Source of the DNA: Candidatus Woykebacteria bacterium
GTDB lineage: Bacteria > Patescibacteriota > Microgenomatia > Woykebacterales > RBG-16-39-9b
Direction: 5' to 3'
Assembly: GCA_040876345.1 (NCBI GenBank)
Contig: JBBDPM010000006.1
Coordinates: 328,547 to 392,546 of the forward strand
DNA length: 64,000 bases
Program-made: the position numbers and the translations under genes
The notes under the pieces: model-generated
What the model was told of the DNA's origin: nothing
Seen by the model: only the letters and a program-made list of their open reading frames with translations
Databases searched by the model: none
Shown: positions 6,586 through 53,694 of the stretch, one piece after another
Numbering within the stretch: the first letter of the stretch is position 1
Layout of the letters: each line of letters opens with the position of its first letter

Positions 6586-6896
6586 CTTTCCCTATGTTAC
6601 TCCGATACTAGATCGAAGCGGTTGTGTTCCTTTTCAACCCTCTACGTCGCCGTAGAGATCGGACTATATCTTCCACTCATAGCTTTTAGCTAAGGGTGGT
6701 CTGACGTATAGTCTCTGAGGATTTCCACCACTTGGCGGATCTTTCCTGCTGATTGTCCGCACCAAACAGGTTGTCACATTTGTCATGCCAAAATAGTTTC
6801 GGCATCTAGATCCTGAAGCAAGTTCAGGATGACATTGTACTGTTGGATACACGGAGTTTCCAGCATTTAGTCAGATTTCTCTAAGGCAGCTTTCCT
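6586..6896 (-). mobile_element. ORF-less group I intron in 23S (H69-H71 region, near E. coli ~1931)
   Basis: Conserved CTAAGGT / AGCGAAATTCCTTGTCGGGTAAGTTCCGACC is split by 311 nt. It shares the S element (AAGATATAGTCC), a CAGAGACTATAC R-like element and ATGCTGGAAACTCCGT with the first intron. Confidence 0.6.
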
Positions 6897-11159: not shown

Positions 11160-11944
11160 GACACTTAACGCGTTAGCTTACGACACCGAACCGTCACCAG
11201 CCCGATATCTAGTGTCCATAGTTTACGGCGTGGACTACACGGGTATCTAATCCGTTTTGCTCCCCACGCTTTCGTGCAACACCGTCATGATCCACCCAGA
11301 TGCCTGCCTTCGCCTTTGGTGTTCCAGTTGATCTCAACGCATTTCACTACTCCACCAACTGTTCCGGCATCCCCTTTGGATATCTAGTCTTGAAGTATCA
11401 CCACCAAGCTGTGGGTTGAGCCCACAGGTTTAAATGGTGACTTTCAAAACCGGCTGCGCACGCTTTACGCCCAGTAAATCCGGGTAACGCTTGGGCCCCA
11501 CGTATCACCGCGGCTGCTGGCACGTGGTTAGCAGGCCCTTATTCTCCTCGACACGACATCGAAGTAAAAGGAGTTTACAACCCGAAGGCCTTCATCCTCC
11601 ACGCGGCGTCGCTGCGTCAGGCTTTCGCCCATTGCGCAAGATTCCCGGTTGCTGCCACCCGTAGGTGTATGGCCCGTGTCTCAGTGCCATTGTGGGAGAT
11701 CATCCTCTCAGACCTCCTACCCGTCGAAGCCTTGGTAGGCCATTACCCCACCAACAAGCTGATAGGACGCGAGCCGCTCCTTTAGCGAGCAGTTATGCTC
11801 TTTGATCTTGCGATCACATGCAGTATTAGCCCACCTTTCGATGGGTTATTCTCCACTAAAGGGTACGTTCTCACGCGTTACTCACCCGTCTGCCACTCCC
11901 GCCCGAAGCGGGTCGTTCGACTTGCATGCCTAAGGCGCGCCGCT

Positions 11945-11976
<32 letters not shown>

Positions 11977-12238
11977 GAAAAAATTTGGCGCTGGCCAAAT
12001 TTCTGAAGACTTGATTGCTCAAATCAGACTACAGATTAATGCTGTAGACATTGTTACTCGAATTGACGTTCGTTCCTTATAAATTTTGAGTTTTCAAAGT
12101 GCACGGTGTTTCCCCTCCAACGAAAAAGAGCCCGCAAATACAAGCTCTTCTTGCGAATCAATGAAATGTGGTACCGAACCTTAAACTTTACATTTCGGCC
12201 TCATTCTAGTTCAAAATCTACCCTTTGTCAACCCTAAC

Positions 12239-12655
12239 TTACTTGTGCTTTCGGGTTGGTAAATATCTTTTTTTCAGTTGGTAAGAATCATAAGAGTCTC
12301 TATCCTTTGGATAATTCTTGAAAAAACGCCAGCTGAAAAAAGCAAGTAAAAATACAAGCGATAAGATATTAATAGCCCAAAAAGCGTGGGCGGAAAGGAA
12401 AGCAACACCTTCTTTTCTAAAAAATACAAATAACGCTCCTAATGCCCCAAAACCCACAAAACTCCAGGCTAACGGGGCAATATATTTACCAATTAGAGGA
12501 TTTTTAGACGAGCCAAATTTTAAGTATATACCGATAATAACCCCCGCGAAGAAGAGCAAAGCGAAAAATGTTAAAAACCAAATCAATTCATCCCAATCGT
12601 TTCGTCCCGAACTAACCCAAAACCGCACGTCTATAAAATCATTAAATTTGATCAT
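12239..12655 (-). CDS. Hypothetical membrane protein
   Basis: 138-aa ORF with 3-4 hydrophobic helices. Confidence 0.4.
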   Translation of the reverse strand: MIKFNDFIDVRFWVSSGRNDWDELIWFLTFFALLFFAGVIIGIYLKFGSSKNPLIGKYIAPLAWSFVGFGALGALFVFFRKEGVAFLSAHAFWAINILSLVFLLAFFSWRFFKNYPKDRDSYDSYQLKKRYLPTRKHK

Positions 12656-12721
12656 TTTTGATATATTTATTTACATTAAAGTTATCAATTACCTAAATAT
12701 AACTTTGTATAACCTTTTGTA

Positions 12722-13819
12722 TCAATACTCATCAATAATTCCTCCACCAAGAACCTCCGCGCCATCATATATAACAACTACCTGACCTGGAGTTACCGCT
12801 TTTTGCGGCTCGCTGAACTTCACTCGAACCACATCTGTATCGATAGACTCAATCCTAGCTTCCTCCAAAGGCTGCCGATAGCGGATTCTAGCCTGCAATC
12901 GATCGCCAGATTTAGGATTCGACCCAATCCAATTTAAATTTGTAGCGACTAACGACCTCTTGTAAAGCTCCCTGGACCCAACCGGCGCAACAACCAACTT
13001 ATTGGGCTCCTTTCGCTTTTCAACCACGTAGTGAGGCACAGACGAGCTCACACCTACACCCGCACGTTGCCCTATCGTATAAAAAGGTATGCCGTCGTGT
13101 TTTCCAATAGTCTTACCGTCCGTGTTAACTATCTGCCCTTCCTTTGGTTTAATTTTTTCTCTAAGAAACTCTGCCAAATTTACTGGCCCAACGAAGCAAA
13201 TTCCTTGGCTATCAGGCTTGTTTGCAGTCGGCAGACCAGCCTCGGAAGCAAGTTTTCTAACTTCACTCTTAGTGTAATCTCCAATCGGAAAAATAGCCTT
13301 TGCTAGCTGATCCTGCGTTAAAGTGTAAAGGAAGTAGGACTGATCCTTGGCAAGATCCAGTCCTGCGTAAAGATGGTAGCTCGATTTTCGATTTTTATCT
13401 AATATCAAAGATCCAGCATCCGACATCCTAATTCTGGCATAATGTCCAGTAGCCACATATTCAAATCCAAGCTCAAGCGCTTTCTTGAGAAATATCCCAA
13501 ATTTAATCTCCTTATTACATATAACATCGGGGTTTGGGGTGCGGCCAGCCTCGTATTCGGAGAAAAAATAGTCGATAACACGCTCTTTGTACTCTTTCTC
13601 AAAATCAAAGATACGGAAAGGAATACCTAAGCACGCGGCAACTTTTGCAGCATCAGCCCTATCTTTTTCCGTAGAACAATATGGACCGGTGTTCCAGCAC
13701 TGCATGTAAGCTCCTTCAATGTAGTAACCTTGGTTTTTTAGTAGTACTGCTGCAACAGAACTATCCACCCCACCGGAAAGAGCCACCAGTACTTTTTTTG
13801 CTTGACTCGATTTTGACAT
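12722..13819 (-). CDS. mnmA: tRNA-specific 2-thiouridylase
   Basis: PP-loop SGGVDSS near N-terminus, with MnmA-type C-terminal domains. Start assigned to the internal Met before the KKVLVALSGGVDSS block. Confidence 0.85.
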   Translation of the reverse strand: MSKSSQAKKVLVALSGGVDSSVAAVLLKNQGYYIEGAYMQCWNTGPYCSTEKDRADAAKVAACLGIPFRIFDFEKEYKERVIDYFFSEYEAGRTPNPDVICNKEIKFGIFLKKALELGFEYVATGHYARIRMSDAGSLILDKNRKSSYHLYAGLDLAKDQSYFLYTLTQDQLAKAIFPIGDYTKSEVRKLASEAGLPTANKPDSQGICFVGPVNLAEFLREKIKPKEGQIVNTDGKTIGKHDGIPFYTIGQRAGVGVSSSVPHYVVEKRKEPNKLVVAPVGSRELYKRSLVATNLNWIGSNPKSGDRLQARIRYRQPLEEARIESIDTDVVRVKFSEPQKAVTPGQVVVIYDGAEVLGGGIIDEY

Positions 13820-16895: not shown

Positions 16896-17078
16896 TTAGG
16901 CAGCTGTCTTCTAAACTACTTTAATTATACGAAGGCTATTTCAGTAAGTCAATAACAGCCTAACTTCTAATAATAACCAAATCTCAATGATCAATAATCA
17001 AACAAATTCCAAATACCAATGCTCAAAAATTCCGGATTTGAAAATTAAAAAATTAAATATTGTTTGGTTATTAAACTT

Positions 17079-17537
17079 CTAATTACTTCGCACTGCAATA
17101 ACGATGGCGACGAGTACAGTAATCACTTGAGTCGCCACCCCTGGCAAAACACTCATTGGCTTTTTCCAATGGAACTTCATGTGAAGTTTGTGGTAGCGGG
17201 AAAGCGCTTCTGGGCCAAAAATCACTTGGATAATATGATGAAAATCGGGCAAGATTGCGGCGATCCCCCCAATCCACATCAGTTCTCCAACGGGGCTATT
17301 AAGAGCAAGAACAGCTAAAAGTCCAAGACCAAAAAGAAGATCAGCTGTCAAAAACAGCACTTCCTTTTTCTCAAGATCCTCCACTTCGATGTAACCTTGG
17401 ATATGCGGAATTGAGTCAAAAACAAAATGGGACGCTGCTGCCACTGGGACAACTTGCCAAGCCTCAGGCAAAGCGCTTCCAATTGCTGCACCTACAAGTA
17501 GATGTGGAGTAGTCAACATATATACTAATAATACCAA
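17079..17537 (-). CDS. YdjM/DUF457-like membrane-bound metal-dependent hydrolase
   Basis: 152 aa. N-terminal THLLVGAAIG motif and multiple TM segments. Confidence 0.5.
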   Translation of the reverse strand: MVLLVYMLTTPHLLVGAAIGSALPEAWQVVPVAAASHFVFDSIPHIQGYIEVEDLEKKEVLFLTADLLFGLGLLAVLALNSPVGELMWIGGIAAILPDFHHIIQVIFGPEALSRYHKLHMKFHWKKPMSVLPGVATQVITVLVAIVIAVRSN

Positions 17538-29641: not shown

Positions 29642-30687
29642 CTTAACACGTAAATGGCAGATTTAGTCTTGCCTTTCTTTCGAACTAGCCCTTTTTTCAT
29701 CAAAGTTTTTAAATCCCGCAATATTGTATCATCCGATACCATCGGCAACAAACTCCGCCATTCTTTATTAGAAACTGCTCTGTACTCTTGCATATATTCG
29801 ACAAGTTTTAATTGTCGATCGTTCAGCGGAAGTTGACCCATTTTACTCTTCAGCCGCAGATCGACGGACAGCCTTCGCACCTTATCTTTGATACGACCAA
29901 GTTCGATGGATAATCCCTCGGTAAAGTATTCCACCCAATTTGTTAAATCTCTATCCTCTATTTTCTTTGATTGGTTGGAAACGATTTGCAAAACGTTGTA
30001 ATAGCGCCCCGCATCTTTATCAAAATACTCTTCAATCGAGAAAAATTTTTTGATGTCGTAGCCTTCTTTAAAAAGAACAAGTGTGGCCAAGGCTCTCGCG
30101 ACCCTACCGTTACCATCCACAAAAGGGTGAATTGCCGCCAAAATATAGTGCGTGATACCGGCTTTTATAACTGGATGAACCTCCTCTACGGAAGAGCGGT
30201 TTAACCAGAGGAAGAAACTTCGCACTAAATCGGCTATTTCTTTCGGCTTTGGGGGTAAGTATGAGGTTTCCCCGGTAGCTGAGTTTGCCACGCGAACGCG
30301 AATATCTCGATATTTTCCAGATTGTGCCTCTGTCAGGATTTTTTTAGTGGTTAGATAGTGAATTTCTAGGAGAACTTTTTCGGTAGTAGGCTCATTTTTT
30401 ACTTTTTCAAGGTATTTTAGAACTTCGCGGTAATTTAAAACCTCTTGGATGTCCCGCTGCCTCGCCGAGATTTTTTTGCCTTCAAGGACATCCTCCACTT
30501 CTTTTTGTTCCAAAGGATTTCCCTCAATGTGAGTGCCGTGGTGAACAGTGCGAATAATTGCCTCTTCCCTGAATTTTGCTTCGTAGGAAGGAACTAGAGG
30601 GGCGTTTTCAATAATTTCTTTGGCAGCTTCTATTTTGCCGATGTTATTCAAAATCTTATTCGTGATTTTAAACTTAGGATTATACAT
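29638..30687 (-). CDS. fic: Fic family protein (putative AMPylase) with C-terminal wHTH
   Basis: 349 aa with Fic motif HPFVDGNGRVARAL. Confidence 0.85.
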   Translation of the reverse strand: MYNPKFKITNKILNNIGKIEAAKEIIENAPLVPSYEAKFREEAIIRTVHHGTHIEGNPLEQKEVEDVLEGKKISARQRDIQEVLNYREVLKYLEKVKNEPTTEKVLLEIHYLTTKKILTEAQSGKYRDIRVRVANSATGETSYLPPKPKEIADLVRSFFLWLNRSSVEEVHPVIKAGITHYILAAIHPFVDGNGRVARALATLVLFKEGYDIKKFFSIEEYFDKDAGRYYNVLQIVSNQSKKIEDRDLTNWVEYFTEGLSIELGRIKDKVRRLSVDLRLKSKMGQLPLNDRQLKLVEYMQEYRAVSNKEWRSLLPMVSDDTILRDLKTLMKKGLVRKKGKTKSAIYVLR

Positions 30688-30814
30688 AATTTAGAATATT
30701 TTTAGTCCACAAAGTGGTCACAGCATTCGAGAGTACCCAAATTACTTGAGCGATTAGCGAATGAATTTGGTTACGGAGAATGCTATTGGTGATTTTAAAT
30801 TTAGGAGTAAACAT
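30688..30814 (-). pseudogene. Duplicated 5-prime fragment of fic (44-codon remnant ORF)
   Basis: Encodes MFTPKFKITNSILRN..., matching the Fic N-terminus MYNPKFKITNKILNN. The same TGATTTTAAA(T/C)TTAGGA nucleotide block lies about 130 nt apart. The remnant ends by overlapping the fic start. Confidence 0.35.
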
Positions 30815-30904
30815 TGGAAAATTATATCGAAGCGATTTCGATGTAATTCTCGCTTCGCTCTAATTATCGCATAATTACCGCAGAAAAGCAAGATTTTTAG
30901 GCGA

Positions 30905-30950
30905 AGAGAAGGGCAGCCTCCGCCAAAGTTAGCTGCCCTTCTCTCTCCTC
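30905..30950 (-). terminator. GC-rich hairpin downstream of the island operon
   Basis: GAGAAGGGCAGC-CTCCGCCAAAGTTA-GCTGCCCTTCTC. No U-tract. Near-identical loop to the hairpin at 32755-32800. Confidence 0.4.
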
Positions 30951-30981
30951 ATTGTTCCGTCACTCGACCGCCATCATGCGC

Positions 30982-31482
30982 TCAGGCGCAGACGGTGTTG
31001 GTGGTCAGGTTGTAGTAGATCCGGGAGCTCTCGCCTTCCGTGTAGTGTTCCCAGATCATGTGTACGCTCTTCCCACGGTCGCAGATGAAGCCGTGCCAAC
31101 CAGGGAAAGACACGTTGTTGTGAGGCGCGACGGAGATGTAGTCACATGGCCCGCTGTAGCCGCAACCGACCGTGCCGTAAAGACCACCGTAGACCCACTC
31201 ACCTGTCCAATTGAACGGCTGATTCCACCTGAACCGGTAGTGGAAGGAGACGATGGTGGCGAAGTCCACGTTCGGATCCGGCGCGCCCGGTTCGAAAACG
31301 ATGTCGGTCGACGCCCGGATTCCCAGAGTATGGTCGGACGGGTCCGGCGCGTAGTACTGCCGCCAAGCGTACGTCCAGGTAGTCGCATGGTCCATGTGAC
31401 CAGCGTCGGCCTGAGACGTCAGCACCGCCATACCTCCGAGCATCGTGGCGATGATCGTCGCTGTGAGGATCAACCGCTTCAT
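30982..31482 (-). CDS. Secreted hypothetical protein (island gene A)
   Basis: Start at internal Met with GGGAGG Shine-Dalgarno. Signal peptide MKRLILTATIIATMLGGMAVLTSQA. ATGA overlap with gene B. Confidence 0.55.
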   Translation of the reverse strand: MKRLILTATIIATMLGGMAVLTSQADAGHMDHATTWTYAWRQYYAPDPSDHTLGIRASTDIVFEPGAPDPNVDFATIVSFHYRFRWNQPFNWTGEWVYGGLYGTVGCGYSGPCDYISVAPHNNVSFPGWHGFICDRGKSVHMIWEHYTEGESSRIYYNLTTNTVCA

Positions 31483-31907
31483 CTCGGAACCTCCCGGATA
31501 AGGTTGCCTTCGCAGTCGTACACGACGAACTTGTCCGGCTCGAACTGGACGTCGGCGCACTGAAGGTCGTCGTCGCCGGCGAAGATGCCCACCTGTTCGC
31601 CGTTTGAGTTGAGGATCGGTCCGGCTTCCTGACCCTCCGGAGGCGGTTGGCCTTGCGTCCCTGGCATCGGCGCACTACCAGCACCACCATTCTCATCGAG
31701 GAGCCACTGGGCAAAGCCCACTTCCTCTTCGCAGCTGGTGAAGCCTGGCGACGGCGTCATGTCGCACGGCGCGTCGTAGGGATCGTGGCCCTCGTTAACC
31801 TCTGGGCCTGGTGGCCACCATTCAGGGAGCTGGGGTACGTTGCAGGTCGCTGCAACACTGAACACCAGCAGCCCGAGGGCAGTGATAACGATGATGATCT
31901 GCTTCAT
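31479..31907 (-). CDS. Secreted hypothetical protein (island gene B)
   Basis: AGGGAG Shine-Dalgarno. Signal peptide MKQIIIVITALGLLVFSVAA. Cys-containing mature region. Confidence 0.55.
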   Translation of the reverse strand: MKQIIIVITALGLLVFSVAATCNVPQLPEWWPPGPEVNEGHDPYDAPCDMTPSPGFTSCEEEVGFAQWLLDENGGAGSAPMPGTQGQPPPEGQEAGPILNSNGEQVGIFAGDDDLQCADVQFEPDKFVVYDCEGNLIREVPR

Positions 31908-31929
31908 TGTGAAGTCTCCCTCTTTCAGG

Positions 31930-32517
31930 TTATCGGCAGATACCGCCCGACGCAATACGGCACGTGAAGCCTAACCACGTCGAATCGGCTGGTGACGGCA
32001 CGAGGCAGGCGATGTCCGCGCCGTCAAACGTGATGGTGCGCTGTTCGAACGTTAGCTCTCCGGTAGGCGGCGCGGTCAGATGACTGACCATGAATGCCTC
32101 TGGCCCCAGACCCACCGACACGAAAGCCCAGTCCTCACGATCTCCCTCGACGCGGAGTGCATCGAAGAACTCCTCAGTTACGTCGAGAAGCCCCACACCC
32201 TCCATGTCCTCGGAAGGCACGCGCACGTAGTTGGATATACGCGCCGCAACAGCAGTCGGTGGTGTCTGACAGACCCACGTCGGATGACTGAGTTGGAGCT
32301 GAGCGAGAACGCTGGCAAACGGCTGGGCCATGCCCGCCGGAGCGAACGGTTCGGACAGCGCGGCGAGTTCGGCTATCGCTGCTTCGTTTGGAGTAGGAGC
32401 AGCGACTTGTGGTGCCGTAGCCGTCGTGTCTGCGCCGCCACCACCATTGCAGGCCGTGGTAATTACCACGCCCACGAGTAGTGAGACGACGAGCCACAAG
32501 GCTACTTTCTGCTTCAT
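31930..32517 (-). CDS. Putative lipoprotein (island gene C)
   Basis: GGGAGG Shine-Dalgarno. Signal MKQKVALWLVVSLLVGVVITTAC with lipobox-like Cys. Ala/Pro-rich linker. Confidence 0.55.
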   Translation of the reverse strand: MKQKVALWLVVSLLVGVVITTACNGGGGADTTATAPQVAAPTPNEAAIAELAALSEPFAPAGMAQPFASVLAQLQLSHPTWVCQTPPTAVAARISNYVRVPSEDMEGVGLLDVTEEFFDALRVEGDREDWAFVSVGLGPEAFMVSHLTAPPTGELTFEQRTITFDGADIACLVPSPADSTWLGFTCRIASGGICR

Positions 32518-32754
32518 GTAAAGCCTCCCTCTCGAATTCTCGACCGCGGTCGGTCGAGATCGTGTGATGTTATCCGGTGGCCTTTTCCATAGGCTCCCTC
32601 CCTTTAGACGGCTGAATCAGCCGCCACAAAACCTGGCCGATGTGCGCTTCGACATGTCAGTTGTTAATGTTCATCCAATACCTCCCTCCAGTTACCCCGA
32701 TTATAGCACCATGGGTCAAAAATAGTTGTTTTTACTGTCTATTATTAAAGGGAG

Positions 32755-32800
32755 AGGGCAGACTTCCGCCAAAGTCGTCTGCCCTCTCCCTTCTCCCTCG
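32755..32800 (-). terminator. GC-rich hairpin between the two island operons
   Basis: GGGAGAGGGCAGAC-TTCCGCCAAAGTC-GTCTGCCCTCTCCC, same loop core as 30905-30950. Confidence 0.4.
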
Positions 32801-32808
32801 CTACCGCC

Positions 32809-32955
32809 TTAGTCTGGGGTGATGAAAACGCCGACCGGAGTGGACGTTTCGCCCTGCTCCGATTCATCGTTTTCAAATTGGGCGCCGATTGCACCCATAA
32901 CAACCACCACGGCTATGAGTACCGCCACCAAGCTGAGTAGTACCGTCGTTCGCAT
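32809..32955 (-). CDS. Small membrane protein (island gene D)
   Basis: About 48 aa from the internal Met, with a single TM helix. Weak call. Confidence 0.3.
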   Translation of the reverse strand: MRTTVLLSLVAVLIAVVVVMGAIGAQFENDESEQGETSTPVGVFITPD

Positions 32956-32966
32956 TGTTGCCCTCC

Positions 32967-34103
32967 TTACGGCCTCACCCACCACGAGCACAAGTTGTAC
33001 TTGAAGTGGAGGGTGATCCGGGCCGTGATCGTCCGGAAGCTGAACCCGATGCCAAAGGCCTCGATCCGATACTTGAACCGAGTCCAGGCTTCAGTCTCCC
33101 CAACCGCAACCGCACCTCCTCTGTACCAAGCGATAGGATTGGTGGAGTACTGTGGGTCTTGATCCACCTCCCAACCCCACGCTGCATCAGCGGTCGCTAT
33201 CGCTGCTGGAGGCTCCCACACGATGTTGGAGTACGTCGTGATAACGAACCGCTGTTTCAGGTAGAAGGTCCCATTGTTGAGACCAACTGGGTTGTACCAC
33301 CGGTATGTCTTCTGGCAGTACAGAGACCGAAAAGCCTGCGGAACAGGCTGCAGATTTGAGCTCTCCAGACGGAGAGCTTCTACCTCAGCCTCTGTCAACG
33401 GCTCCTCGCCTTGACTCGCATCCATCTGCCTGTACTCGTAGGAAACGATTCTCCCGCCGGCATCGGTAATGTAGTAGCAGTCTCGCCACTTCTCACCAGA
33501 CTCGATCTCTGAGTCGACCGTTTCCGCTACACCCAGATCGTAGATCTTTCCACCACAATACTCAATCTGCTCACAGCGGTGGCCGAACTGGAAGACGATG
33601 AGTCCGATGTCAGCTGCCGCCACGATACCATCGGGAGGGCCTGAGTCCCAGGGGTCACCTCCTGGTGGTGGAGCTGAGCGGTCGAAGTCCGGCCAATACC
33701 CAGGGGACCCTTCGTGGGTACCGAACCGAGCCACCACCCTGGATATGTCTGCTGCTGACACCGTGTTGTCCCGAGGCGGTGTGTCAAAGAAATCCGACGC
33801 GTTGATCGGATCCCTTCGGCCTCCAAGAGCGGGGTTGGGACCAAGCTCCTCTTCGTTGGTGCATCCGTCATTGTCAATGTCGAGATCAGGCAGGAGCTTC
33901 TCGATCGGGACCGTCTGGCTCCCTAGGTCCTCCTCCTGGACTGGCGGTGTCTCGGTCGGTGTCGGCGATTGACCGTTCGCCTGTCCTTGACCTTGAAAGG
34001 TAAGGGCAAAGGCGATTACCGCCGTAATAAAAGCCGCCAGACGAATTCCCCCACTAAAGGCCTTGAAGGGCCCTGCCACCAGACTTAGGATTGTGCCTTG
34101 CAT
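32967..34103 (-). CDS. Secreted protein with calcium-binding D-x-D-x-D-G repeat and dockerin-like segments (island gene E)
   Basis: GGAGG Shine-Dalgarno 5 nt before the internal Met MQGTIL, then a hydrophobic signal. DIDNDGCTNEEE motif. Repeated D.TVSAADISRVVARFG and DGIVAAADIGLIVFQFG resemble type I dockerin helices. Confidence 0.6.
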   Translation of the reverse strand: MQGTILSLVAGPFKAFSGGIRLAAFITAVIAFALTFQGQGQANGQSPTPTETPPVQEEDLGSQTVPIEKLLPDLDIDNDGCTNEEELGPNPALGGRRDPINASDFFDTPPRDNTVSAADISRVVARFGTHEGSPGYWPDFDRSAPPPGGDPWDSGPPDGIVAAADIGLIVFQFGHRCEQIEYCGGKIYDLGVAETVDSEIESGEKWRDCYYITDAGGRIVSYEYRQMDASQGEEPLTEAEVEALRLESSNLQPVPQAFRSLYCQKTYRWYNPVGLNNGTFYLKQRFVITTYSNIVWEPPAAIATADAAWGWEVDQDPQYSTNPIAWYRGGAVAVGETEAWTRFKYRIEAFGIGFSFRTITARITLHFKYNLCSWWVRP

Positions 34104-34520
34104 GGCAACCTCCTTTGTCGAGTGGATTTTCGGATATTCAGTTGTAAAATTGATCCTCCCCTTATTTATTCTCCCGAGCAACCAGCTCAACTCAGGGCAA
34201 GCCAACCCTTGCCAAGGGCATTTTGAGGAGGCTCAAAATAACACGAAACACCCTATTTGTCAACCTTGTAGTAATTTATTACGAGTCTTACAGTTAAAAT
34301 AATAATAATTTTTCACACTCTTATAGTTTTGATAATTTGTAACTCTATAAGTCTTGCATTAACACTAACTATCTTGTAAGGGCTCTATCCAATTTAGCAG
34401 GAGTTCCTGACTGTCAAAACCTATGGTTTAGACTTGGCAGTTGGGCCTGCCCGCGATGCTAGCGCACGGAGTTAGCAGTAGGGTATTGCAAGTGCTAATA
34501 TTTTATGTTATACATTCCCT

Positions 34521-36723: not shown

Positions 36724-36972
36724 CTACGCAACTGTCAGAGTTCTGAGCGGAACTTCCGGCAGCTTTTTCGCAATCTCCCGACCTTTCTGAGTAAGTTGGT
36801 ATTTGCGGGTGTTGGTTCCCACCAACTCACTTATCGTCAGACGGTCGAGATACATGTCAATGACGTCGTTGGGTATCTCGAGAAATGCCGCCCTCAACTC
36901 GGCAAGTGTTGCTTCCCCCACCCTTAAAAGGTGGTTGAGAATCCGCTGCTCGTTCTGGTGAAGACCTCTCAT
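36724..36972 (-). CDS. Small winged-helix DNA-binding protein
   Basis: 82 aa with wHTH-like LLRVGEATLAELRAAF. High GC. Overlaps the upstream SDR gene by 4 nt. Confidence 0.45.
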   Translation of the reverse strand: MRGLHQNEQRILNHLLRVGEATLAELRAAFLEIPNDVIDMYLDRLTISELVGTNTRKYQLTQKGREIAKKLPEVPLRTLTVA

Positions 36973-37769
36973 GCTGTAATCTCTTCCCCACCGTCGATGC
37001 CGATTACGTTGCCTGTCATCCAGCGGAGGCGTTCGTCGGCAAGAGCGGCTATGGCGCGCGCGACGTCGTCCGTGGTGGTCGAGCGGCCGGAGGGATTGCG
37101 CTCCTGGGCCTGCGCGTGCAGCTCGAGGCCGCCTGGAATGCGACGGAGCGCGGGCGTGTCAGTAACGCCGGCGCGGATCGCGTTCGCGGCAATGCCTAGT
37201 TGCGCTAGCTCGAATGCTATCTGACGAATGTGGCTTTCCAGAGCCGCCTTCGCCGCGGAAACGGCGCCGTACGAATTGATCACGCGTGTTGAACCGGAAC
37301 TCGTCATGGCGAAGATGCGGCTCCCCTCACTAAGCAGGTCGCGGCCGATCAGGTCCTGCGTCCAGTAGACCAGGCTGTTTGCCATTACGTCGAGCGTCAT
37401 CTCCATTTGCTTCTGGCTAATCGCTCCCTTTGGCGTCTCACCAAAGTAGGGCAGGAGAGTGCCGAAGGCGAGTGAGTGTAAGAAGACGCGGACGTAAGCG
37501 TTGTCGCCTTCTTGTCGTAGGCGCTGCTGCATCGCCTCGATTACGGACGCGCGTTTCTCAGCGTCGGCGGCGTTGACGTTGAAGAACTCAAACTCCCGAC
37601 CAAGCGAGCCAATCTCCTCCTGAATGCGCTGGGCATTCGGTAGCGTGGCCCGTAGATCCAGGTGCACGCCGAAGATGTTGTAACCGCTTCGGGCAAGTTC
37701 AAGCGAGGTTGCCCCGCCGAAGCCGCTTGAGGCGCCGAGGATGAGAGCCCAGTCGTTTGCCATGGTCAA
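36969..37769 (-). CDS. SDR-family oxidoreductase, enoyl-reductase-like (Y-x6-K)
   Basis: 266 aa. Glycine-rich ILGASSGFGGATS. SYGAVSAAKAAL gives a FabI-like Y-x6-K spacing. High GC. Shine-Dalgarno AAGGGGG. Confidence 0.65.
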   Translation of the reverse strand: MTMANDWALILGASSGFGGATSLELARSGYNIFGVHLDLRATLPNAQRIQEEIGSLGREFEFFNVNAADAEKRASVIEAMQQRLRQEGDNAYVRVFLHSLAFGTLLPYFGETPKGAISQKQMEMTLDVMANSLVYWTQDLIGRDLLSEGSRIFAMTSSGSTRVINSYGAVSAAKAALESHIRQIAFELAQLGIAANAIRAGVTDTPALRRIPGGLELHAQAQERNPSGRSTTTDDVARAIAALADERLRWMTGNVIGIDGGEEITA

Positions 37770-43127: not shown

Positions 43128-43622
43128 TTACTTAGGCTGCCGACTGTACCCGTAATTGACTCGGCAGGGGTGCTCGTCTGCCATAGCATTCGCCCTGTAG
43201 GTCTCCTTCATCTGGAACCCGAGGTCATTTGCCGCTTTCCAAGCCCCCCAGAAACGGCCCTTGTAATAGGCTGTTGTCGAATTCCACACCTGTTGGTCAC
43301 CGCTGCGACGGGCCGCCTCTTGGCGCTGGAATGCCAAATCAAGATCTCGGGCTAGCCTTCGGAGTCGATTGTCCACCATCTCCTGAGCCGTCCACATCAG
43401 CATCCCTTCGTCGACGGTGCGACAATCCTTGGGCCAGAAATCCAAGGCGCTGTAGAAAACCCTCCTCCGCCTTTCTGGGAATGGCCAGATGTAATCCCAA
43501 ATCTCCTCTCGATCTGTACCGGGAAGGCTCCAGATCAAATTTGGGACAATAAGCTTGCCCCAAATTAAGAGGGTGAGGGATGCACATCCGAACGTGGCTA
43601 TTATAATATCACTAGTATCCAT
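43128..43622 (-). CDS. Hypothetical membrane-anchored protein in high-GC islet
   Basis: 164 aa. AAGGAG Shine-Dalgarno. N-terminal TM helix. GC well above flanks. Confidence 0.4.
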   Translation of the reverse strand: MDTSDIIIATFGCASLTLLIWGKLIVPNLIWSLPGTDREEIWDYIWPFPERRRRVFYSALDFWPKDCRTVDEGMLMWTAQEMVDNRLRRLARDLDLAFQRQEAARRSGDQQVWNSTTAYYKGRFWGAWKAANDLGFQMKETYRANAMADEHPCRVNYGYSRQPK

Positions 43623-46055: not shown

Positions 46056-46944
46056 CATGGAAACTCGAATAGGCGACTTCCTGCTTTTTCTCCAGACAGA
46101 AAGAGAAGCCTCGGAGAACACGATCGCCGCCTACGATAACGACCTGCGTCAATTCTACTCTTTCCTTTCCTAAAGTGGACTGGTGGACAACGCTGCGGGC
46201 TGGGAGTGTGTCAGTCAAGACACAATCCTGTCATTCATCGTGGAACTGCGCAACAAACTCTGCGCCGACGCCACTGTCTCCCGCAAGTTCTCAGCCGTGA
46301 GGTCGTTCCTCCAGTTCCTCCACACCGAGGGTGATATTCCTCTGAATCCCACGGAGGGTTTGGAGCCGCCTCGCGTCGGTAAGTCATTGCCCAAGCCGCT
46401 CACCGTCCAGCAAATGGATGATCTCCTTGAGCAGCCAGCTAAGCGGGCCACGCCAGAGGCGTTGCGCGACGGAGCGATGCTGGAACTAACCTGCGCCACC
46501 GGTCTACGCATCAGTGAGCTCGTCTCGCTCGACGTTGACAAAGTCTCACTAGACTCGCACAACCCCTACGTTCGTTGCATAGGCAAGGGGTCGAAGGAAC
46601 GCCTTATCCCGATCCACGCTCGAGCGCTACAGGCCGTGGCGGCCTATATTGATGGAGGCCGGCCTCGTCTGTTGAAGGTCAGGCGCAGCAATACTGCGCT
46701 CTTCCTGAACCGCCGCGGCGACCGACTGACGCGCCAGGGATTCTGGCTGCTCTTGAAGCAGTACGCCCGCGCCGCCCACATAGACGAGGAGCAGGTATCG
46801 GCCAGAATTTTGCGGCACAGCTTCGCCACCAATATGCTGAGAGGCGGCGCGCCCCTGCCCACCGTCCAAGAGCGACTGGGTCATGCCCAACTGTCTACTA
46901 CTCAGATCTACACCCAGGTGGCAACTGCTAAGGGAGGCAGATAA
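46056..46944 (+). pseudogene. XerC/XerD-like tyrosine recombinase with frameshift and in-frame stop near the 5-prime end
   Basis: Frame 0 METRIGDFLLFLQTERAEASENTIAAYDN, then a +1 shift near 46140 (DLRQFYSFLS), a TAA at 46171-46173, then an intact C-terminal catalytic domain (R..HxxR..Y: RHSFAT...TQIYTQV). High GC. Confidence 0.6.
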
Positions 46945-50985: not shown

Positions 50986-51510
50986 TCATGGCCAATTCTC
51001 TCCTTCCTGATACCAGCCAACGACCCTTCTAAGTCCACAGTCCTTGCAAACTTCAGTCTTCAAGGTTGCCGAACGGCTGCGAACGTCGAGGGCTCGGTAG
51101 AATTTCTTGTGACCGCACGCCAACTCCTCTAAACGCCCTTGTAGAGTGGAGTCGAACTGAACCCGCTCTCCAAGTTTGAGGCCTCCAAGGTGCGACATGT
51201 TTTCATGTAACGGCCGTGAAAAAAACCTAGCTCCTTCGACCTGCTCCCAGAAAAGCGCTCTGCCACGCTCAAGGGATGGGTTACCAGCCATAACCCCACT
51301 CAGAAGCCGGGCTTCGGTTTCTCTCCCGCCGATGGACTTCCACTTGTTATCGAGAGCCCATTTCATCTTTTCGATAAACCCTCGACTAGCTTTCCACAAA
51401 GCTATCTGTGGGTGCCTCGCTTTCACTGCCTGGGTGTAGACCAGCTTACCAGGGCTCCCATCGAATGTAGGAACATCCCAGGTAACCAAGTACCACTCTT
51501 TCCGACTCAT
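50986..51510 (-). CDS. Hypothetical protein (175 aa from the Shine-Dalgarno-led Met), C-terminal CxxC pair
   Basis: AAGGAG Shine-Dalgarno before MSRKEWYLVTWDVP. ACGHKKF...CKDCG motifs. Elevated GC. Confidence 0.4.
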   Translation of the reverse strand: MSRKEWYLVTWDVPTFDGSPGKLVYTQAVKARHPQIALWKASRGFIEKMKWALDNKWKSIGGRETEARLLSGVMAGNPSLERGRALFWEQVEGARFFSRPLHENMSHLGGLKLGERVQFDSTLQGRLEELACGHKKFYRALDVRSRSATLKTEVCKDCGLRRVVGWYQEGENWP

Positions 51511-51567
51511 CTTCCCTTCACTCCTTTCGTTTTTTCCCTGCTCACCCGCGCACATCTCAGACCTTTG

Positions 51568-52017
51568 TTAGAACCCTTCGTAGTCGCAGAGACACTCTAC
51601 CGGATCGCTCACAATCCTAGCCTGGTTACCACAATCGATGCACAGGAGGACGGTTTGATTGCGGTGCAACAGAGGCTTTCTGAGCGTCGGATCTCTTGAT
51701 CCAGTCCTGGTGTGATCGGCGCCCAGAAGTTTGCTCTGGACTTTGAGATCCCCTGGATTCGTACAGCCAACTTTATGCCACACGTACTCCAGTTCAATCG
51801 GGACCTTCACCTTCACCCCACAGCCCCTACACTTCTTCATGAGCTGGCTGATGAAGACTGTTTCTGTCACCGCCACTTCCTCAGAATCGTCCTCCCAGCC
51901 AAAGCCGGCATCGCATAGCACGCCATTTCCGACTTCGCCGTGTTTTGCTGCCGCCAGGCGTTCTTCGATCGTTCTTGGTGAACCACTCAAGTCCACCGAA
52001 CTCCCCATCCAGCTCAT
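51568..52017 (-). CDS. Cys-rich zinc-ribbon-like small protein (149 aa)
   Basis: AAGGAG Shine-Dalgarno. CRGCG and CIDCG pairs plus a C..C.C cluster. Confidence 0.45.
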   Translation of the reverse strand: MSWMGSSVDLSGSPRTIEERLAAAKHGEVGNGVLCDAGFGWEDDSEEVAVTETVFISQLMKKCRGCGVKVKVPIELEYVWHKVGCTNPGDLKVQSKLLGADHTRTGSRDPTLRKPLLHRNQTVLLCIDCGNQARIVSDPVECLCDYEGF

Positions 52018-52056
52018 CTTCCGATTTCTCCTTTCTTCAGCTTACTGTCGCGCGTA

Positions 52057-52356
52057 TCACGAGCCGCACCAGCCAATGTGTCTTGGACCGCCACAATTAA
52101 AGCATGCAAGTTTTGAAAGAACCTGGGCCTCTTGTTCACTCTGCCTTCTGGCATCTAGAAGAGCCCGAACCACCGCCAAATGAACATGGATCGTTAACCC
52201 TTCACACTCACAGCAGAGCAGAACAATGTCAGTACGAGCAAGTTCTGGTCTGTGATACTCAACAAGATGTACCTTCCCTTCTGTCGAGCAGCCCTTCTTA
52301 TGTGTAAGTGCCGACTCGATTTTGAAGTTTGCGATCACCTTAGACTCCTTTGCCAC
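52057..52356 (-). CDS. Cys-rich small protein (99 aa)
   Basis: AAGGAG Shine-Dalgarno. CCECEG and CFNCGG motifs. First gene of the minus-strand operon, divergent from the radical SAM gene. Confidence 0.45.
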   Translation of the reverse strand: MAKESKVIANFKIESALTHKKGCSTEGKVHLVEYHRPELARTDIVLLCCECEGLTIHVHLAVVRALLDARRQSEQEAQVLSKLACFNCGGPRHIGWCGS

Positions 52357-52707
52357 AAAAATAGCTCACCGTTTGGTGAGCTGTGAAGTAACTTTGTTTT
52401 TTATTTGAACTAGCTTAAAACCAAGGCACCACAAAACCCACCAACGTTAGTCGGTTTTCTTGTGACACCACTTGTGCACGCCTAGACTCGGCGAGACTTG
52501 GTTCAAGCTAGTAAGCATGAGGGTTACAAATATCATGTGGCTATACTTTTGTCAAACCGCTTTACATACATACACACGAGCACGGCCGGGACCCTTATCA
52601 TTTCCTCCACAACTAACTGATTTTTTAGCGTCTTTAGTGTAATATACTAACATAGGATCAGGGGATAACAATCGAGCACCCAATAACACGGAAGGAGGGC
52701 ACCAGAA

Positions 52708-53694
52708 ATGGGTATATTCTCAGTGTCGGGTGCTCTCAGGGGTACCCAATTCATTGCAACAAGAGGGCCACGCTACGGTACGCTCTTCGTGAACACTGGC
52801 TGTAACCGAAGGTGTGTTTACTGCGTGGTGCCTGATGAAGGTTCTGGTATCGAGCTTCCAACCGAGACTTGGTTCGAGATCATCGATAGGTTGCACAGCT
52901 GGGGAGTCCGACTCTTCGGAATTCTCGGTGGTGAGCCAACGCTACGCAAGGATCTACCAGAGATCGTTGCCTACGCTGCAAAGAGGGGGGGGGTTAACGT
53001 AACCAGTAACGGTGATACCTTTGCTGGGGCTAGAGGCCTGGTACGATTGGAGACTCTGACCGGCTCTGGTGTCAAAGTCCTCACGCTGTCACTCCATCAA
53101 GCAGAGGACTTGGACAGGCAACTGGATCTGCTAGTGACGGCAAGAAGGTTGGGAGCAATACCAGTACTCGGAGTCGTGGTCACGAGACAATCCATCGGTA
53201 CAACGGCTGATGTGATGAGGGAGACGAACTCTCGAGGAATTCTCTTCCGCTACTGTTTCGTCCAGAGCCTTGGCGGTGTATTCAGCGCACTTGATGCTCA
53301 GTTGCAACCAACCCCTGGGCAGATCGAGGATTTCACCTCGCAGGTGCTGAAGCAGAAGAAGCGGACTGGACTGATCCAAAACTCAGATCTTTACATCAAA
53401 GGCTGGGATCTCTATCCGAGGAGCTGGCACTGCGATGTGAGCACCGATCGCTGGGTGGTGGTGGACAACGAGGGCAAGCTGATGGCGTGCAGTGAATACG
53501 CAACCAGTGTTCCAGTTCTCTCGATCCAAAGTCTCAATGACGCTCGATGGGTCGAGGAAAGAACCGACAAGCGTTCAGTCTGTGCAGGATGCACCTACCA
53601 GTGCTATATTGAGGAAGAGGGATTGGGCACAAAAGACCTTGTTCGTGAGGGTATCAACATCGGACGTGGTCTTCTTCGCTCAAAACCACATTAA
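52708..53694 (+). CDS. Radical SAM enzyme with C-terminal SPASM/twitch-like Cys cluster
   Basis: GGAGG Shine-Dalgarno. CNRRCVYC (CxxxCxxC) at residues 32-39. GGEPTL SAM-binding motif. C-terminal C..C...CAGCTYQC cluster. Confidence 0.75.
   Translation: MGIFSVSGALRGTQFIATRGPRYGTLFVNTGCNRRCVYCVVPDEGSGIELPTETWFEIIDRLHSWGVRLFGILGGEPTLRKDLPEIVAYAAKRGGVNVTSNGDTFAGARGLVRLETLTGSGVKVLTLSLHQAEDLDRQLDLLVTARRLGAIPVLGVVVTRQSIGTTADVMRETNSRGILFRYCFVQSLGGVFSALDAQLQPTPGQIEDFTSQVLKQKKRTGLIQNSDLYIKGWDLYPRSWHCDVSTDRWVVVDNEGKLMACSEYATSVPVLSIQSLNDARWVEERTDKRSVCAGCTYQCYIEEEGLGTKDLVREGINIGRGLLRSKPH

What the first reader, a model, noticed from the sequence alone, without database searches (positions are those of the whole stretch)
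30900..34105. 3.2-kb high-GC island of five secreted proteins (one dockerin-like) inserted between fic and clpB
GC jumps from roughly 38% to above 60% by eye over sharp boundaries at 30900 and 34105.

All five minus-strand ORFs have GGAGG-type ribosome-binding sites. Four carry N-terminal signal or lipoprotein peptides, and two are translationally coupled by an ATGA overlap.

The largest protein carries a DIDNDGCTNEEE calcium-binding motif and two dockerin-like helices (AADISRVVARFG and AADIGLIVFQFG). The codon style is unlike the rest of the window.

Together this looks like a horizontally acquired secreted cargo cassette, possibly a cohesin/dockerin-type surface assembly, in an organism that probably lives attached to a host. 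I recognise no known family for genes A-C.
Basis: partly seen in the sequence, partly recalled or inferred. Interest (0 to 1): 0.7.

Follow-up and report, generated by a model that had tools for sequence, protein, structure and literature searches.

The report
Foreign-composition surface-protein slot in Woykebacteria
A 3.2-kb GC-rich insert in a tiny candidate-phyla-radiation (CPR) bacterium encodes exported proteins, one carrying a dockerin-like "flexitail" domain, and sits in a chromosomal slot that six related genomes also fill with GC-rich genes of the same rare family.

Summary
GC jumps from about 0.41 to 0.59 at change-points 30900 and 34114, and this is the strongest tetranucleotide outlier in the window. 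The contig is from a Candidatus Woykebacteria genome assembled from a metagenome (a MAG).

Protein E (378 aa) has three parts:
- a signal peptide;
- the NCBIfam "flexitail" domain (NF041520, 103.5 bits). A flexitail profile matches solved type II dockerins at E = 5e-4, although Pfam Dockerin_1 is not reached;
- a C-terminal domain of a new, very rare family: 12 representatives among 1.84 billion proteins.

Every "domain-only" member of that family lies in the same fic/clpB slot of six other CPR contigs. All have GC 0.56-0.60 against flanks of 0.38-0.46, and each is followed by a tiny membrane-protein ORF. E itself groups with flexitail-bearing relatives from genomes of roughly 60% GC, including a Dehalococcoidia MAG.

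Genes A, B and C hit no family model and no fetched locus. A and C were also searched against the 5.8-billion-protein set (A found only itself, C one 72% relative); B was not.

The insert is therefore not an assembly chimera and not a one-off insertion. It is a lineage-wide variable slot with donor-like composition, remodelled here by acquisition from high-GC, probably Chloroflexota-like, donors. I found no cohesin, carbohydrate-active enzyme or mobility gene. Function is inferred to be surface display or cell-cell interaction. Why the GC stays high across these lineages is unexplained.

The parts
30900..34114 (.). GC-rich island (GC 0.59 against 0.41 for the flanks)
   Evidence: Change-points at 30900 and 34114. 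Composition profiles. Top tetranucleotide outlier of the window. delta* to own flanks 176-189.
34235..34263 (-). Promoter-like site for the E-D unit (TTGACA, 17 nt, TATTTT, with TG), lying in the AT-rich native intergenic DNA
   Evidence: Consensus scan only. The number of such sites found does not exceed shuffles, so this is an inference.
32967..34103 (-). Gene E, 378 aa: signal peptide or anchor, then flexitail domain, then a new C-terminal domain
   Evidence: ORF and RBS. Identical to an NCBI protein named flexitail domain-containing putative surface protein. Called as a gene in GCA_040903525.1.
33573..33881 (-). Flexitail domain (E residues 75-177): an EF-hand-type loop DIDNDGCTNEEE plus two dockerin-like helices, bracketed by invariant Cys81 and Cys177
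   Evidence: NF041520, 103.5 bits against a cutoff of 40. Invariant columns. Profile matches to type II dockerins at E = 4.8e-4.
32970..33572 (-). C-terminal domain of E (residues 178-378). It belongs to a rare undescribed family with the motif TTPYTNIVWPPP..WGW..IVAVGET and three conserved Cys.
   Evidence: Exhaustive hmmsearch found 12 representatives among 1.84e9 proteins. Alignment A5. No Pfam, NCBIfam or PDB match.
32809..32955 (-). Gene D, 48-aa single-pass membrane peptide, not annotated in the NCBI record
   Evidence: AAGGAGG RBS. A small membrane-protein ORF directly follows the family gene in every locus where the downstream sequence was available. Sequence similarity to the L017 53-aa ORF is only suggestive (E = 0.23).
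32748..32792 (-). Hairpin ending the E-D unit: 16-17 bp perfect stem, -35.9 kcal/mol
   Evidence: Inverted repeat I5. Fold z = -5.8.
32518..32747 (-). Lower-GC spacer and leader of the C-B-A unit. It holds an extended -10 (TGCTATAAT at 32700-32708) and two mini-ORFs with strong RBS.
   Evidence: Read from the sequence. GC dips to 0.32-0.45. RBS-plus-ATG repeat family D3. No Rfam match.
31930..32517 (-). Gene C, 195-aa probable lipoprotein or secreted protein with no family assignment
   Evidence: A single homologue, P0010, at 72% identity in a JGI metagenome.
31479..31907 (-). Gene B, 142-aa probable lipoprotein, acidic and Pro/Gly-rich, with no family assignment
30982..31482 (-). Gene A, 166-aa secreted protein, an orphan; its start overlaps the stop of B (ATGA)
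   Evidence: Only a self-hit among 5.8e9 proteins. No PDB match.
30899..30949 (-). Hairpin ending the C-B-A unit. It shares a 34-nt core (74% identity) and the loop ACTTTGGCGGA with the first hairpin.
   Evidence: (z = -5.2), and repeat D6.
30863..30891 (-). Native fic promoter (TTGCTT, 17 nt, GATAAT) directly abutting the island. It is homologous to TTGACAATCTGCGGTAAATGTGCG in the sister loci.
   Evidence: A conserved motif follows the hairpin in L003, L010 and L013. Window sequence.
34472..34498 (.). CIRCE-like palindrome (TTAGCACTT, 9 nt, TACTGCTAA) upstream of clpB. It marks native DNA on the other side of the island.
   Evidence: Conserved in the window, L010 and L003. The identification as CIRCE rests on my own knowledge of the consensus.

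Best explanation
The segment is a real, compositionally foreign surface-protein locus in a Candidatus Woykebacteria (CPR/Patescibacteria) chromosome. It fills a fixed slot between the native fic promoter and the clpB regulatory region.

The core of the slot, in this and at least six related CPR genomes, is a two-gene module ended by a strong hairpin. The first gene encodes a Sec-exported, cysteine-containing, beta-rich protein of a rare undescribed family. The second encodes a tiny single-pass membrane protein.

In this genome the module (E-D) is of the kind found in bacteria of roughly 55-62% GC and in a Dehalococcoidia MAG. Here the exported protein carries a flexitail domain between its signal peptide and the family domain. 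That domain is one EF-hand-type calcium loop plus a divergent dockerin-like helix pair closed by a conserved Cys pair.

A second transcription unit (C-B-A) has been added. It encodes three orphan secreted or lipoproteins and has its own leader and a sister hairpin.

Shown:
- the foreign composition;
- the slot conservation;
- the family relationships;
- the domain architecture.

Inferred:
- The DNA came by horizontal transfer from high-GC, probably Chloroflexota-like, donors, either once with later replacement or repeatedly.
- E-D is transcribed from an AT-rich promoter in native intergenic DNA.
- The products are exported and E is held at the cell surface, with the flexitail docking onto a partner.
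- The fast-evolving C-terminal domain mediates contact with other cells, such as a host, as an adhesin or effector.
For: Composition.

Identity of the genome. The rRNA operon with a group I intron is consistent with a CPR genome.

Flexitail: NF041520 at 103.5 bits. The other flexitail proteins carry it at their C-terminus behind RCC1 repeats or a subtilisin, one of them from a Chloroflexi MAG.

Dockerin relation.

New family: 12 representatives, aligned in A5.

Slot conservation:
- L003: clpB, island, fic. Its 193-aa protein matches the family profile at hhalign probability 94.9%, E = 4.6e-8. Controls A, B and C score 0.7-2.2%.
- L008/L009.
- L010/L011.
- L012 and L013.
- L016.

GC of these inserts is 0.56-0.60 against flanks of 0.38-0.46.

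The C-terminal domain of E scores 74-94 bits against five of the six flexitail-group relatives (56 against P0015), but 50 bits or less against the CPR-type members. The flexitail-type relatives sit in uniformly high-GC contigs L002, L014, L015 and L017. P0011 is annotated as from a Dehalococcoidia MAG. Island delta* is 48-51 to L002 and L017.

Small membrane-protein ORFs lie downstream everywhere. Hairpins. Native borders. More distant relatives L004 and L005 have fic and ligase but no GC-rich insert.
Against: - No mobility gene, tRNA or flanking direct repeat marks an insertion event.
- The donor is not identified. The best full-length relative is only 39-41% identical, and P0011 is itself compositionally atypical in its Dehalococcoidia contig (GC 0.56 against 0.69-0.76).
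- The CPR domain-only members share an architecture and roughly track the fic grouping. That looks like vertical descent and sits badly with their unameliorated GC3.
- No structure could be obtained: pLDDT was 41.5 for full-length E and 56.6 for the flexitail domain alone.
- No partner for the flexitail is known.
- Surface display and a role in cell contact are inferences from export signals and domain type only.
Confidence: 0.6

Rival explanations
1. Vertically inherited lineage locus. The module entered the Woykebacteria ancestor once, or is native, and has been inherited ever since. Its high GC is kept up by a local force rather than by new transfers, for example GC-biased gene conversion at a recombination hot spot, or selection on the mRNA or codons.
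For: The same family sits in the same slot in seven CPR genomes. Domain-only members share an N-terminal motif and architecture. Their similarity roughly follows the fic grouping: P0016 with P0020, as L009 with L012; and P0017, P0019 and P0021, as L013 with L010.
Against: - Flanking proteins are 51-85% identical, so silent sites are saturated, yet GC3 of the module stays at 0.65-0.85 against 0.36-0.47 in the flanks.
- E groups with the high-GC flexitail relatives, not with the CPR-type.
- C-B-A and the L003 companion genes are unique to single genomes.
- The module is inverted in L008/L009 and L012.
- The signature of the island resembles that of the high-GC contigs.
Confidence: 0.2
2. Polymorphic toxin or bacteriocin-like module. 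The exported family protein is a diffusible toxin or effector, and the tiny membrane protein encoded just downstream is its cognate immunity protein. The slot is hypervariable because of an arms race.
For: - An exported, disulfide-type protein is followed in every locus by a small, sequence-unrelated membrane-protein ORF.
- Divergence is extreme (19-43% identity) between conserved flanks.
- Composition is atypical.
- The domain-only members have no obvious anchor.
Against: No toxin, bacteriocin or immunity family matches in Pfam, NCBIfam, PADLOC or PHROGs. The C-terminal domain is the conserved part rather than a swapped toxin tip. The flexitail forms look like anchored surface proteins.
Confidence: 0.15
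3. A genuine cohesin-dockerin (cellulosome-like) assembly for polysaccharide breakdown.
For: A flexitail profile matches type II dockerins. Dockerin-domain proteins occur in cultivated Patescibacteria (PMC10633639).
Against: Pfam found no cohesin or carbohydrate-active enzyme domain in A-E or in the nine other window proteins scanned. Pfam Dockerin_1 is not reached. The calcium loops of both repeats are degenerate in E. Other flexitail proteins carry RCC1 repeats or a subtilisin, not glycoside hydrolases.
Confidence: 0.04
4. Assembly or binning chimera that joins a high-GC organism's DNA into a CPR contig.
For: The composition borders are sharp. This is a metagenome-assembled genome.
Against: - E is found on six contigs, including Logan assemblies up to 586 kb, with the same neighbours.
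- The borders fall at a terminator hairpin next to the conserved fic promoter, and in the clpB upstream region.
- Six other CPR assemblies from different samples show GC-rich inserts with a homologous gene at the same junctions.
Confidence: 0.01

Closest known systems
NCBIfam NF041520, flexitail domain-containing putative surface proteins (seen here in Chloroflexi/Dehalococcoidia MAG proteins)
   Same: E residues 75-177 match the whole model (1-107 of 107) at 103.5 bits. E shares the DxDxDGC loop, the GGxRDP..DFxD motif, the two amphipathic helices ending in FG, and the invariant Cys pair.
   Different: In P0003-P0007 the domain is the extreme C-terminal tail behind RCC1 repeats, a subtilisin or other modules. 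In E and its five full-length relatives it comes straight after the signal peptide and is followed by a 200-aa domain. E is in a CPR genome, not a Chloroflexota one.
Type II dockerin modules of cellulosomal scaffoldins (for example the X-Doc of Clostridium thermocellum CipA: PDB 2B59, 5G5D, 3KCP; Pfam PF00404)
   Same: The flexitail has two loop-helix repeats. The flexitail profile (positions 42-107) aligns to the full dockerin (CipA residues 105-157) at E = 4.8e-4. The six best PDB matches are all dockerins, and so are all four Foldseek matches of the weak model.
   Different: - The Pfam threshold is not reached.
- A 13-residue insertion sits before the second repeat.
- There is an extra N-terminal EF-hand loop and a disulfide-type Cys pair.
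- In E the Asp/Asn at loop positions 1 and 3 are replaced (TPPRDNTVSAAD, SGPPDGIVAAAD).
- No cohesin partner or glycoside hydrolase context is present.
Chromosomal integration hot spots or variable islets between conserved core genes (genomic islands without mobility genes)
   Same: Foreign composition, borders in intergenic DNA between conserved genes, and different gene content at the same site in related genomes.
   Different: One rare gene family is present in every occupant of the slot. Donor-like GC persists across lineages whose flanking proteins are only 51-85% identical.
Essential dockerin-domain envelope protein of the epibiont Southlakia epibionticum (SEML1_0315)
   Same: A dockerin-type module on an envelope protein of a patescibacterial genome. 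The authors speculate that it targets host-cell-associated glycans, for adhesion or degradation (PMC10633639).
   Different: Different CPR class (Saccharibacteria). No sequence comparison was made here, and the role in host contact is speculation in both cases.

Membership tests
Flexitail domain (NCBIfam NF041520) | Score at or above the curated cutoff over the full model | tested here: met
   103.5 bits against a cutoff of 40, model positions 1-107 of 107, E residues 75-177.
Flexitail domain (NCBIfam NF041520) | Domain forms the C-terminal tail of the protein. This is implied by the name and seen in P0003-P0007; I could not read the curated description. | tested here: not met
   In E, P0002, P0011, P0012, P0014 and P0015 it is N-terminal, followed by a domain of about 200 aa.
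Flexitail domain (NCBIfam NF041520) | Conserved Cys near each end of the domain and a DxDxDG calcium-type loop | tested here: met
   Invariant D75, D77, D79, G80, C81 and C177 in 7 and in 11 sequences.
Dockerin (Pfam PF00404 Dockerin_1; type I/II dockerin fold) | Match to the Pfam model at its gathering score | tested here: not met
   No hit for E even at E <= 1. One of 7 flexitail domains hits Dockerin_1, at E = 0.047.
Dockerin (Pfam PF00404 Dockerin_1; type I/II dockerin fold) | Two tandem segments, each a 12-residue calcium loop (D-x-[DN]-x-D-G-x-[IV]-x-x-x-D) followed by a helix | tested here: inconclusive
   Both helices, and positions 5, 6, 8 and 12 of the loops, are kept. Some family members have canonical loops (DVNKDGRISASND in P0007, DVNLDGYVDLQND in P0011). 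In E, positions 1 and 3 are T/P and S/P.
Dockerin (Pfam PF00404 Dockerin_1; type I/II dockerin fold) | Detectable homology to solved dockerin modules | tested here: met
   The 11-sequence profile gives 2b59_B at 4.8e-4, 5g5d_B at 6.7e-4, 3kcp_A at 2.2e-3 and 5k39_B at 3.1e-3, aligned over both repeats. The 7-sequence profile had the same six chains as its top hits, at E = 0.013-0.14.
Dockerin (Pfam PF00404 Dockerin_1; type I/II dockerin fold) | Dockerin fold in a confident structure model | tested here: inconclusive
   The AlphaFold2 model of the domain has pLDDT 56.6. All four Foldseek matches are X-dockerins, but at E = 0.8-5.4 and TM about 0.3.
Dockerin (Pfam PF00404 Dockerin_1; type I/II dockerin fold) | A cohesin partner encoded in the system | tested here: not met
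   Pfam found no cohesin in A-E or in nine other window proteins. The rest of the genome and co-occurring genomes could not be searched.
Horizontally acquired genomic island | Composition and codon usage deviate from the host genome, with sharp borders | tested here: met
Horizontally acquired genomic island | Nearest homologues lie in a different lineage | tested here: met
   The best relatives of E are on high-GC contigs and in a Dehalococcoidia MAG. A has none. C has one, of unknown origin.
Horizontally acquired genomic island | Absent from the same site in close relatives | tested here: not met
   The site is occupied in six relatives by other GC-rich inserts with a homologous gene. Only the flexitail part of E and the D and C-B-A sequences have no counterpart there. 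More distant L004 and L005 lack any insert.
Horizontally acquired genomic island | Mobility signatures: integrase or transposase, tRNA target, flanking direct repeats | tested here: not met
   None in or next to the island. The only nearby repeat is a decayed 45-nt copy of the fic 5' end, which lies on one side only. The high-GC XerD-like gene is 12 kb away.
Polymorphic toxin or bacteriocin with immunity gene | Recognisable toxin or bacteriocin domain | tested here: not met
   No match in Pfam, NCBIfam, PADLOC, PHROGs or PDB.
Polymorphic toxin or bacteriocin with immunity gene | Small cognate gene immediately downstream, variable between loci | tested here: met
   Small membrane-protein ORFs follow the family gene in all loci where the downstream sequence was available. 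Whether they confer immunity is not testable here.

The most novel reading that the evidence does not exclude
The fic/clpB slot may be a lineage-wide host-interface cassette of Woykebacteria that is repeatedly refreshed with DNA from the organisms these episymbionts live on. In this genome, the symbiont would have captured a Chloroflexota-type surface module whose dockerin-like flexitail lets its own exported protein plug into the flexitail receptor on the host cell surface. The persistent donor-like GC would then be a footprint of ongoing host-to-symbiont transfer, and would point to Chloroflexota as the unknown host of Woykebacteria.
Probability: 0.12. Interest if true: 0.8.

Novelty: new member of a known kind. 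Interest (0 to 1): 0.5.

Why it matters
To my knowledge (not checked in the literature here), no host of Woykebacteria is known and very few CPR surface proteins have a traceable origin.

This locus offers three things:
- a concrete, positionally conserved and fast-evolving exported-protein module to test as a cell-contact factor;
- a compositional and phylogenetic link to flexitail-bearing high-GC bacteria, which could narrow the search for partners;
- evidence that the uncharacterised flexitail domain is a divergent dockerin, which suggests that a cohesin-like receptor should exist in Chloroflexota envelopes.

The unameliorated GC in a slot shared by deeply diverged genomes is also a clean test case. 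It can distinguish recurrent transfer from biased gene conversion in reduced genomes.

Tried and rejected
- **Metagenome scans.** Whether B and A homologues follow it therefore remains unknown.
- **Viral scans with alignments.** Single-protein viral scans for E and B were empty, as were tblastn searches of E against plasmids and phages. There is no sign of a phage or plasmid vehicle.
- **AlphaFold2.** Full-length E (7-row alignment) gave pLDDT 41.5 and the flexitail alone gave 56.6. Both are too weak for fold assignment. The Foldseek result is only consistent with the sequence result, not independent proof.
- **E's C-terminal domain against A, B and C.** No relation.
- **D against the L017 small ORF.** Not significant.
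- **Rfam on the island at E <= 1.** Nothing credible, so the 230-nt leader of C is not a known riboswitch.
- **Integron-cassette reading of the two hairpins.** Rejected. The stems are perfect terminator-like stems, no integrase is adjacent, and no attC-type motifs are present.
- **Literature.** "Flexitail" returns only unrelated antibody-engineering papers. Nothing relevant to this locus turned up for Woykebacteria.

Full report
**What the window is.** Protein E is identical to an NCBI protein from a Candidatus Woykebacteria MAG (GCA_040903525.1, contig JBBDVF010000008.1). The window also carries a bacterial rRNA operon whose 23S gene has a group I intron, which I regard as usual for CPR bacteria (Patescibacteria).

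**Checking the observation.**
- Background GC is about 0.41 and the segment 30900-34105 is 0.586.
- The segment is the top tetranucleotide outlier of 153 sliding windows.
- Its dinucleotide signature differs from its own flanks by delta* = 176-189, while the two flanks differ by 31.
- GC3 is 0.61-0.80 in the five ORFs, against 0.37-0.43 in fic, ligase and clpB.
- The five minus-strand ORFs, their GGAGG-type ribosome-binding sites, the ATGA overlap of B and A, and the quoted motifs are all present.
- D (48 aa) is not called in the NCBI record.
- The island is one of several discrete high-GC genes in the window. The others are an SDR at 36969-37769, a XerD-like recombinase at 46183-46944, and segments at 43128-43622 and 50986-53694.

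**Anatomy.** There are two transcription units.
- E-D is preceded by a promoter-like site in AT-rich intergenic DNA. It ends in a 16-17 bp perfect hairpin (-35.9 kcal/mol, z = -5.8).
- A lower-GC spacer of 230 nt follows. It contains an extended -10 and two mini-ORFs.
- C-B-A comes next and ends in a second hairpin (z = -5.2). This hairpin shares a 34-nt core and the loop ACTTTGGCGGA with the first, so the two units have a common history.
- Directly beyond the second hairpin lies the fic promoter. Its sequence is conserved in sister genomes.
- Beyond the start of E lies a CIRCE-like palindrome in front of clpB, also conserved. The borders are therefore native regulatory DNA on both sides.

**Protein E.**
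- Pfam finds nothing. NCBIfam places residues 75-177 in the flexitail domain NF041520 at 103.5 bits against a cutoff of 40.
- Homologues sharing only this domain carry it at their extreme C-terminus, behind RCC1 repeats or a subtilisin. One of them is from Chloroflexi bacterium RBG_16_68_14.
- The domain has an EF-hand-type loop (DxDxDGC...E), two helices ending in FG, and an invariant Cys at each end.
- A 7-sequence profile has six dockerin chains as its top PDB hits, at E = 0.013-0.14.
- An 11-sequence profile improves this to E = 4.8e-4 for the type II X-dockerin of C. thermocellum CipA. The alignment covers both dockerin repeats and shows a 13-residue insertion.
- Pfam Dockerin_1 is touched by only one member, at E = 0.047.
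- The structure models are of low confidence (pLDDT 41.5 and 56.6). The only four Foldseek matches are X-dockerins, at non-significant scores.
- My reading is that flexitail is a remote, divergent dockerin relative. In E, loop positions 1 and 3 of both repeats are degenerate. No cohesin is encoded in the window.

**The C-terminal domain and the slot.** An exhaustive profile search of 1.84 billion representative proteins with E residues 178-378 plus P0002 found only 12 proteins. They fall into two architectures.
- The first is signal peptide, flexitail, then the family domain: E, P0002, P0011, P0012, P0014 and P0015.
- The second is signal peptide then the family domain only: P0016, P0017, P0019, P0020 and P0021.

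*CPR loci.* Every domain-only member whose contig I could read lies in a CPR contig at the same place as the island:
- P0016 lies next to clpB-folD-GT2-GT2-fpg-fpg-polA in L008, and next to fic in L009.
- P0021 lies between clpB and fic-ligase in L010.
- P0020 lies between fic and clpB in L012, and P0019 lies upstream of fic in L013.
- P0017 lies upstream of fic in L016.
- The sister Woykebacteria genome found through the ligase (L003, 73% identity) has a 3-kb, 0.56-0.59 GC insert between clpB and fic with different genes. Its 193-aa protein nevertheless matches the family profile at hhalign probability 94.9%, E = 4.6e-8. A, B and C score 0.7-2.2% as controls.

*Composition and downstream ORF.* In all these loci the module has GC 0.56-0.60 and GC3 0.65-0.85, against flanks of GC 0.38-0.46. 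In every locus where the downstream sequence was available, the family gene is followed by a small membrane-protein ORF. This supports D as a real gene.

*High-GC loci.* The flexitail-type members sit in uniformly high-GC contigs (L002, L014, L015 and L017, GC 0.55-0.62). One is in a Dehalococcoidia MAG, where the gene is a relatively low-GC patch (0.56 against 0.69-0.76).

*Where E groups.* The C-terminal domain of E scores 74-94 bits against five of the six relatives in the flexitail-type (high-GC) group, which here includes the truncated P0013 (56 bits against P0015). It scores 50 bits or less against the CPR-type members. The island's dinucleotide signature is close to L002 and L017 (delta* 48-51) and to the L003 island (71).

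*Outgroups.* More distant relatives L004 and L005 have fic and ligase but no insert.

**Genes A, B and C.**
- None of the three matches Pfam, NCBIfam, PHROGs, PADLOC or PDB.
- A has only a self-hit among 5.8 billion proteins.
- C has one 72% homologue in a JGI metagenome, whose DNA I could not obtain.
- None of the three has a relative in any fetched locus.

**Interpretation.** Chimeric assembly is excluded by replication across assemblies and samples.

The island is best described as the local state of a lineage-wide variable slot whose occupants keep a donor-like composition. In this genome the slot holds a flexitail-type module closest to those of high-GC, probably Chloroflexota-like, bacteria, plus an added orphan operon. 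Horizontal acquisition is well supported for E-D and for C-B-A, but the donor and the number of events are not established.

Function is inferred. The products are exported proteins. E is probably docked at the surface through the dockerin-like flexitail, and the fast-evolving family domain probably acts in cell-cell contact.

A toxin-immunity reading of the conserved pairing of an exported protein with a tiny membrane protein remains a live rival.

The main unexplained fact concerns GC. The domain-only CPR members look vertically inherited, yet they have not drifted toward the host GC. The flanking proteins are 51-85% identical, so silent sites should be saturated.

**Novelty.**
- The flexitail assignment is already in NCBI's annotation.
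- New here are the dockerin relation of flexitail, the rare C-terminal family with its obligatory small-ORF companion, and the conserved GC-rich slot in Woykebacteria.
- As a kind of thing, a foreign-composition variable surface-protein locus between core genes, it is a new member of a known kind.

Noticed in passing
window 30770-30814 (minus strand), compared with 30643-30687: A decayed 45-nt direct copy (78% identity) of the fic 5' end, reading MFTPKFKITNSIL... It lies 127 nt upstream of the real fic start, between the conserved fic promoter and fic. It is probably a relic of a small duplication or recombination at the island border.
   Followed up: partly
window 36724-37769; compare L008 1540-4474: A high-GC SDR/FabL-like reductase (GC 0.61, GC3 0.73) and a small wHTH gene lie between clpB and folD. 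In L008 clpB is followed directly by folD, so this is a second, independent GC-rich insertion 2.6 kb from the first.
   Followed up: partly
window 46183-46944, 43128-43622, 50986-53694: Further discrete high-GC genes: a XerD-like tyrosine recombinase (GC 0.60), a 164-aa protein with no family match, and a block containing a radical-SAM gene (GC 0.53). The genome looks like a mosaic with many GC-rich acquisitions. L003 shows similar patches at 11750-13250 and 17000-17500.
   Followed up: no
window 32657-32674 and 32570-32590 (minus strand): Two mini-ORFs (MNINN*, MEKATG*), each behind a strong GGGAGG site, lie in the 230-nt leader of gene C. They could be leader peptides or remnants of degraded gene starts. 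No Rfam family matches the leader.
   Followed up: partly
window 34472-34498; L010 and L003 clpB upstream regions: A CIRCE-like palindrome (TTAGCACTT, 9 nt, TACTGCTAA) is conserved upstream of clpB in three Woykebacteria genomes. This suggests HrcA-type heat-shock control (the consensus is from my own knowledge).
   Followed up: no
L006 2585-3616 (Dehalococcoidia MAG GCA_040877745.1): The flexitail-type family member P0011 has GC 0.56 and GC3 0.62 amid neighbours at GC 0.69-0.76 and GC3 0.87-0.95. The gene therefore looks foreign there too, and the compositional home of the family is an unidentified lineage of about 55-62% GC.
   Followed up: partly
L003 4014-5501: The sister island encodes a 495-aa lipoprotein with bacterial TSP3-type calcium repeats and two segments (SIGDVVQLFGH, NIGDVTAAFGG) that resemble the flexitail/dockerin helices. 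It does not reach NF041520.
   Followed up: partly
L008/L009 and L012, compared with the window, L003, L010, L013 and L016: The family module is inverted relative to fic and clpB in the two loci whose fic genes group together (71% identity to each other, 50-58% to the rest). This points to a clade-specific inversion or a separate insertion.
   Followed up: no
window 5252-5755 and 6640-6954: The 23S rRNA gene contains a group I intron. Just 3' of the 23S gene (its end is at 5756) lies a 167-aa ORF (5252-5755) whose motif (GFVDGEGCFYV) looks like a LAGLIDADG homing endonuclease to me. The window also has two adjacent fpg paralogues and a tRNA-Ile(UAU).
   Followed up: no
L004 (CAYGGA010000007.1): This contig is deposited as an uncultured Gammaproteobacteria MAG. 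It carries fic-ligase-MJ0043 synteny with 53-67% protein identity to the Woykebacteria window, so its taxonomic label is probably wrong.
   Followed up: no
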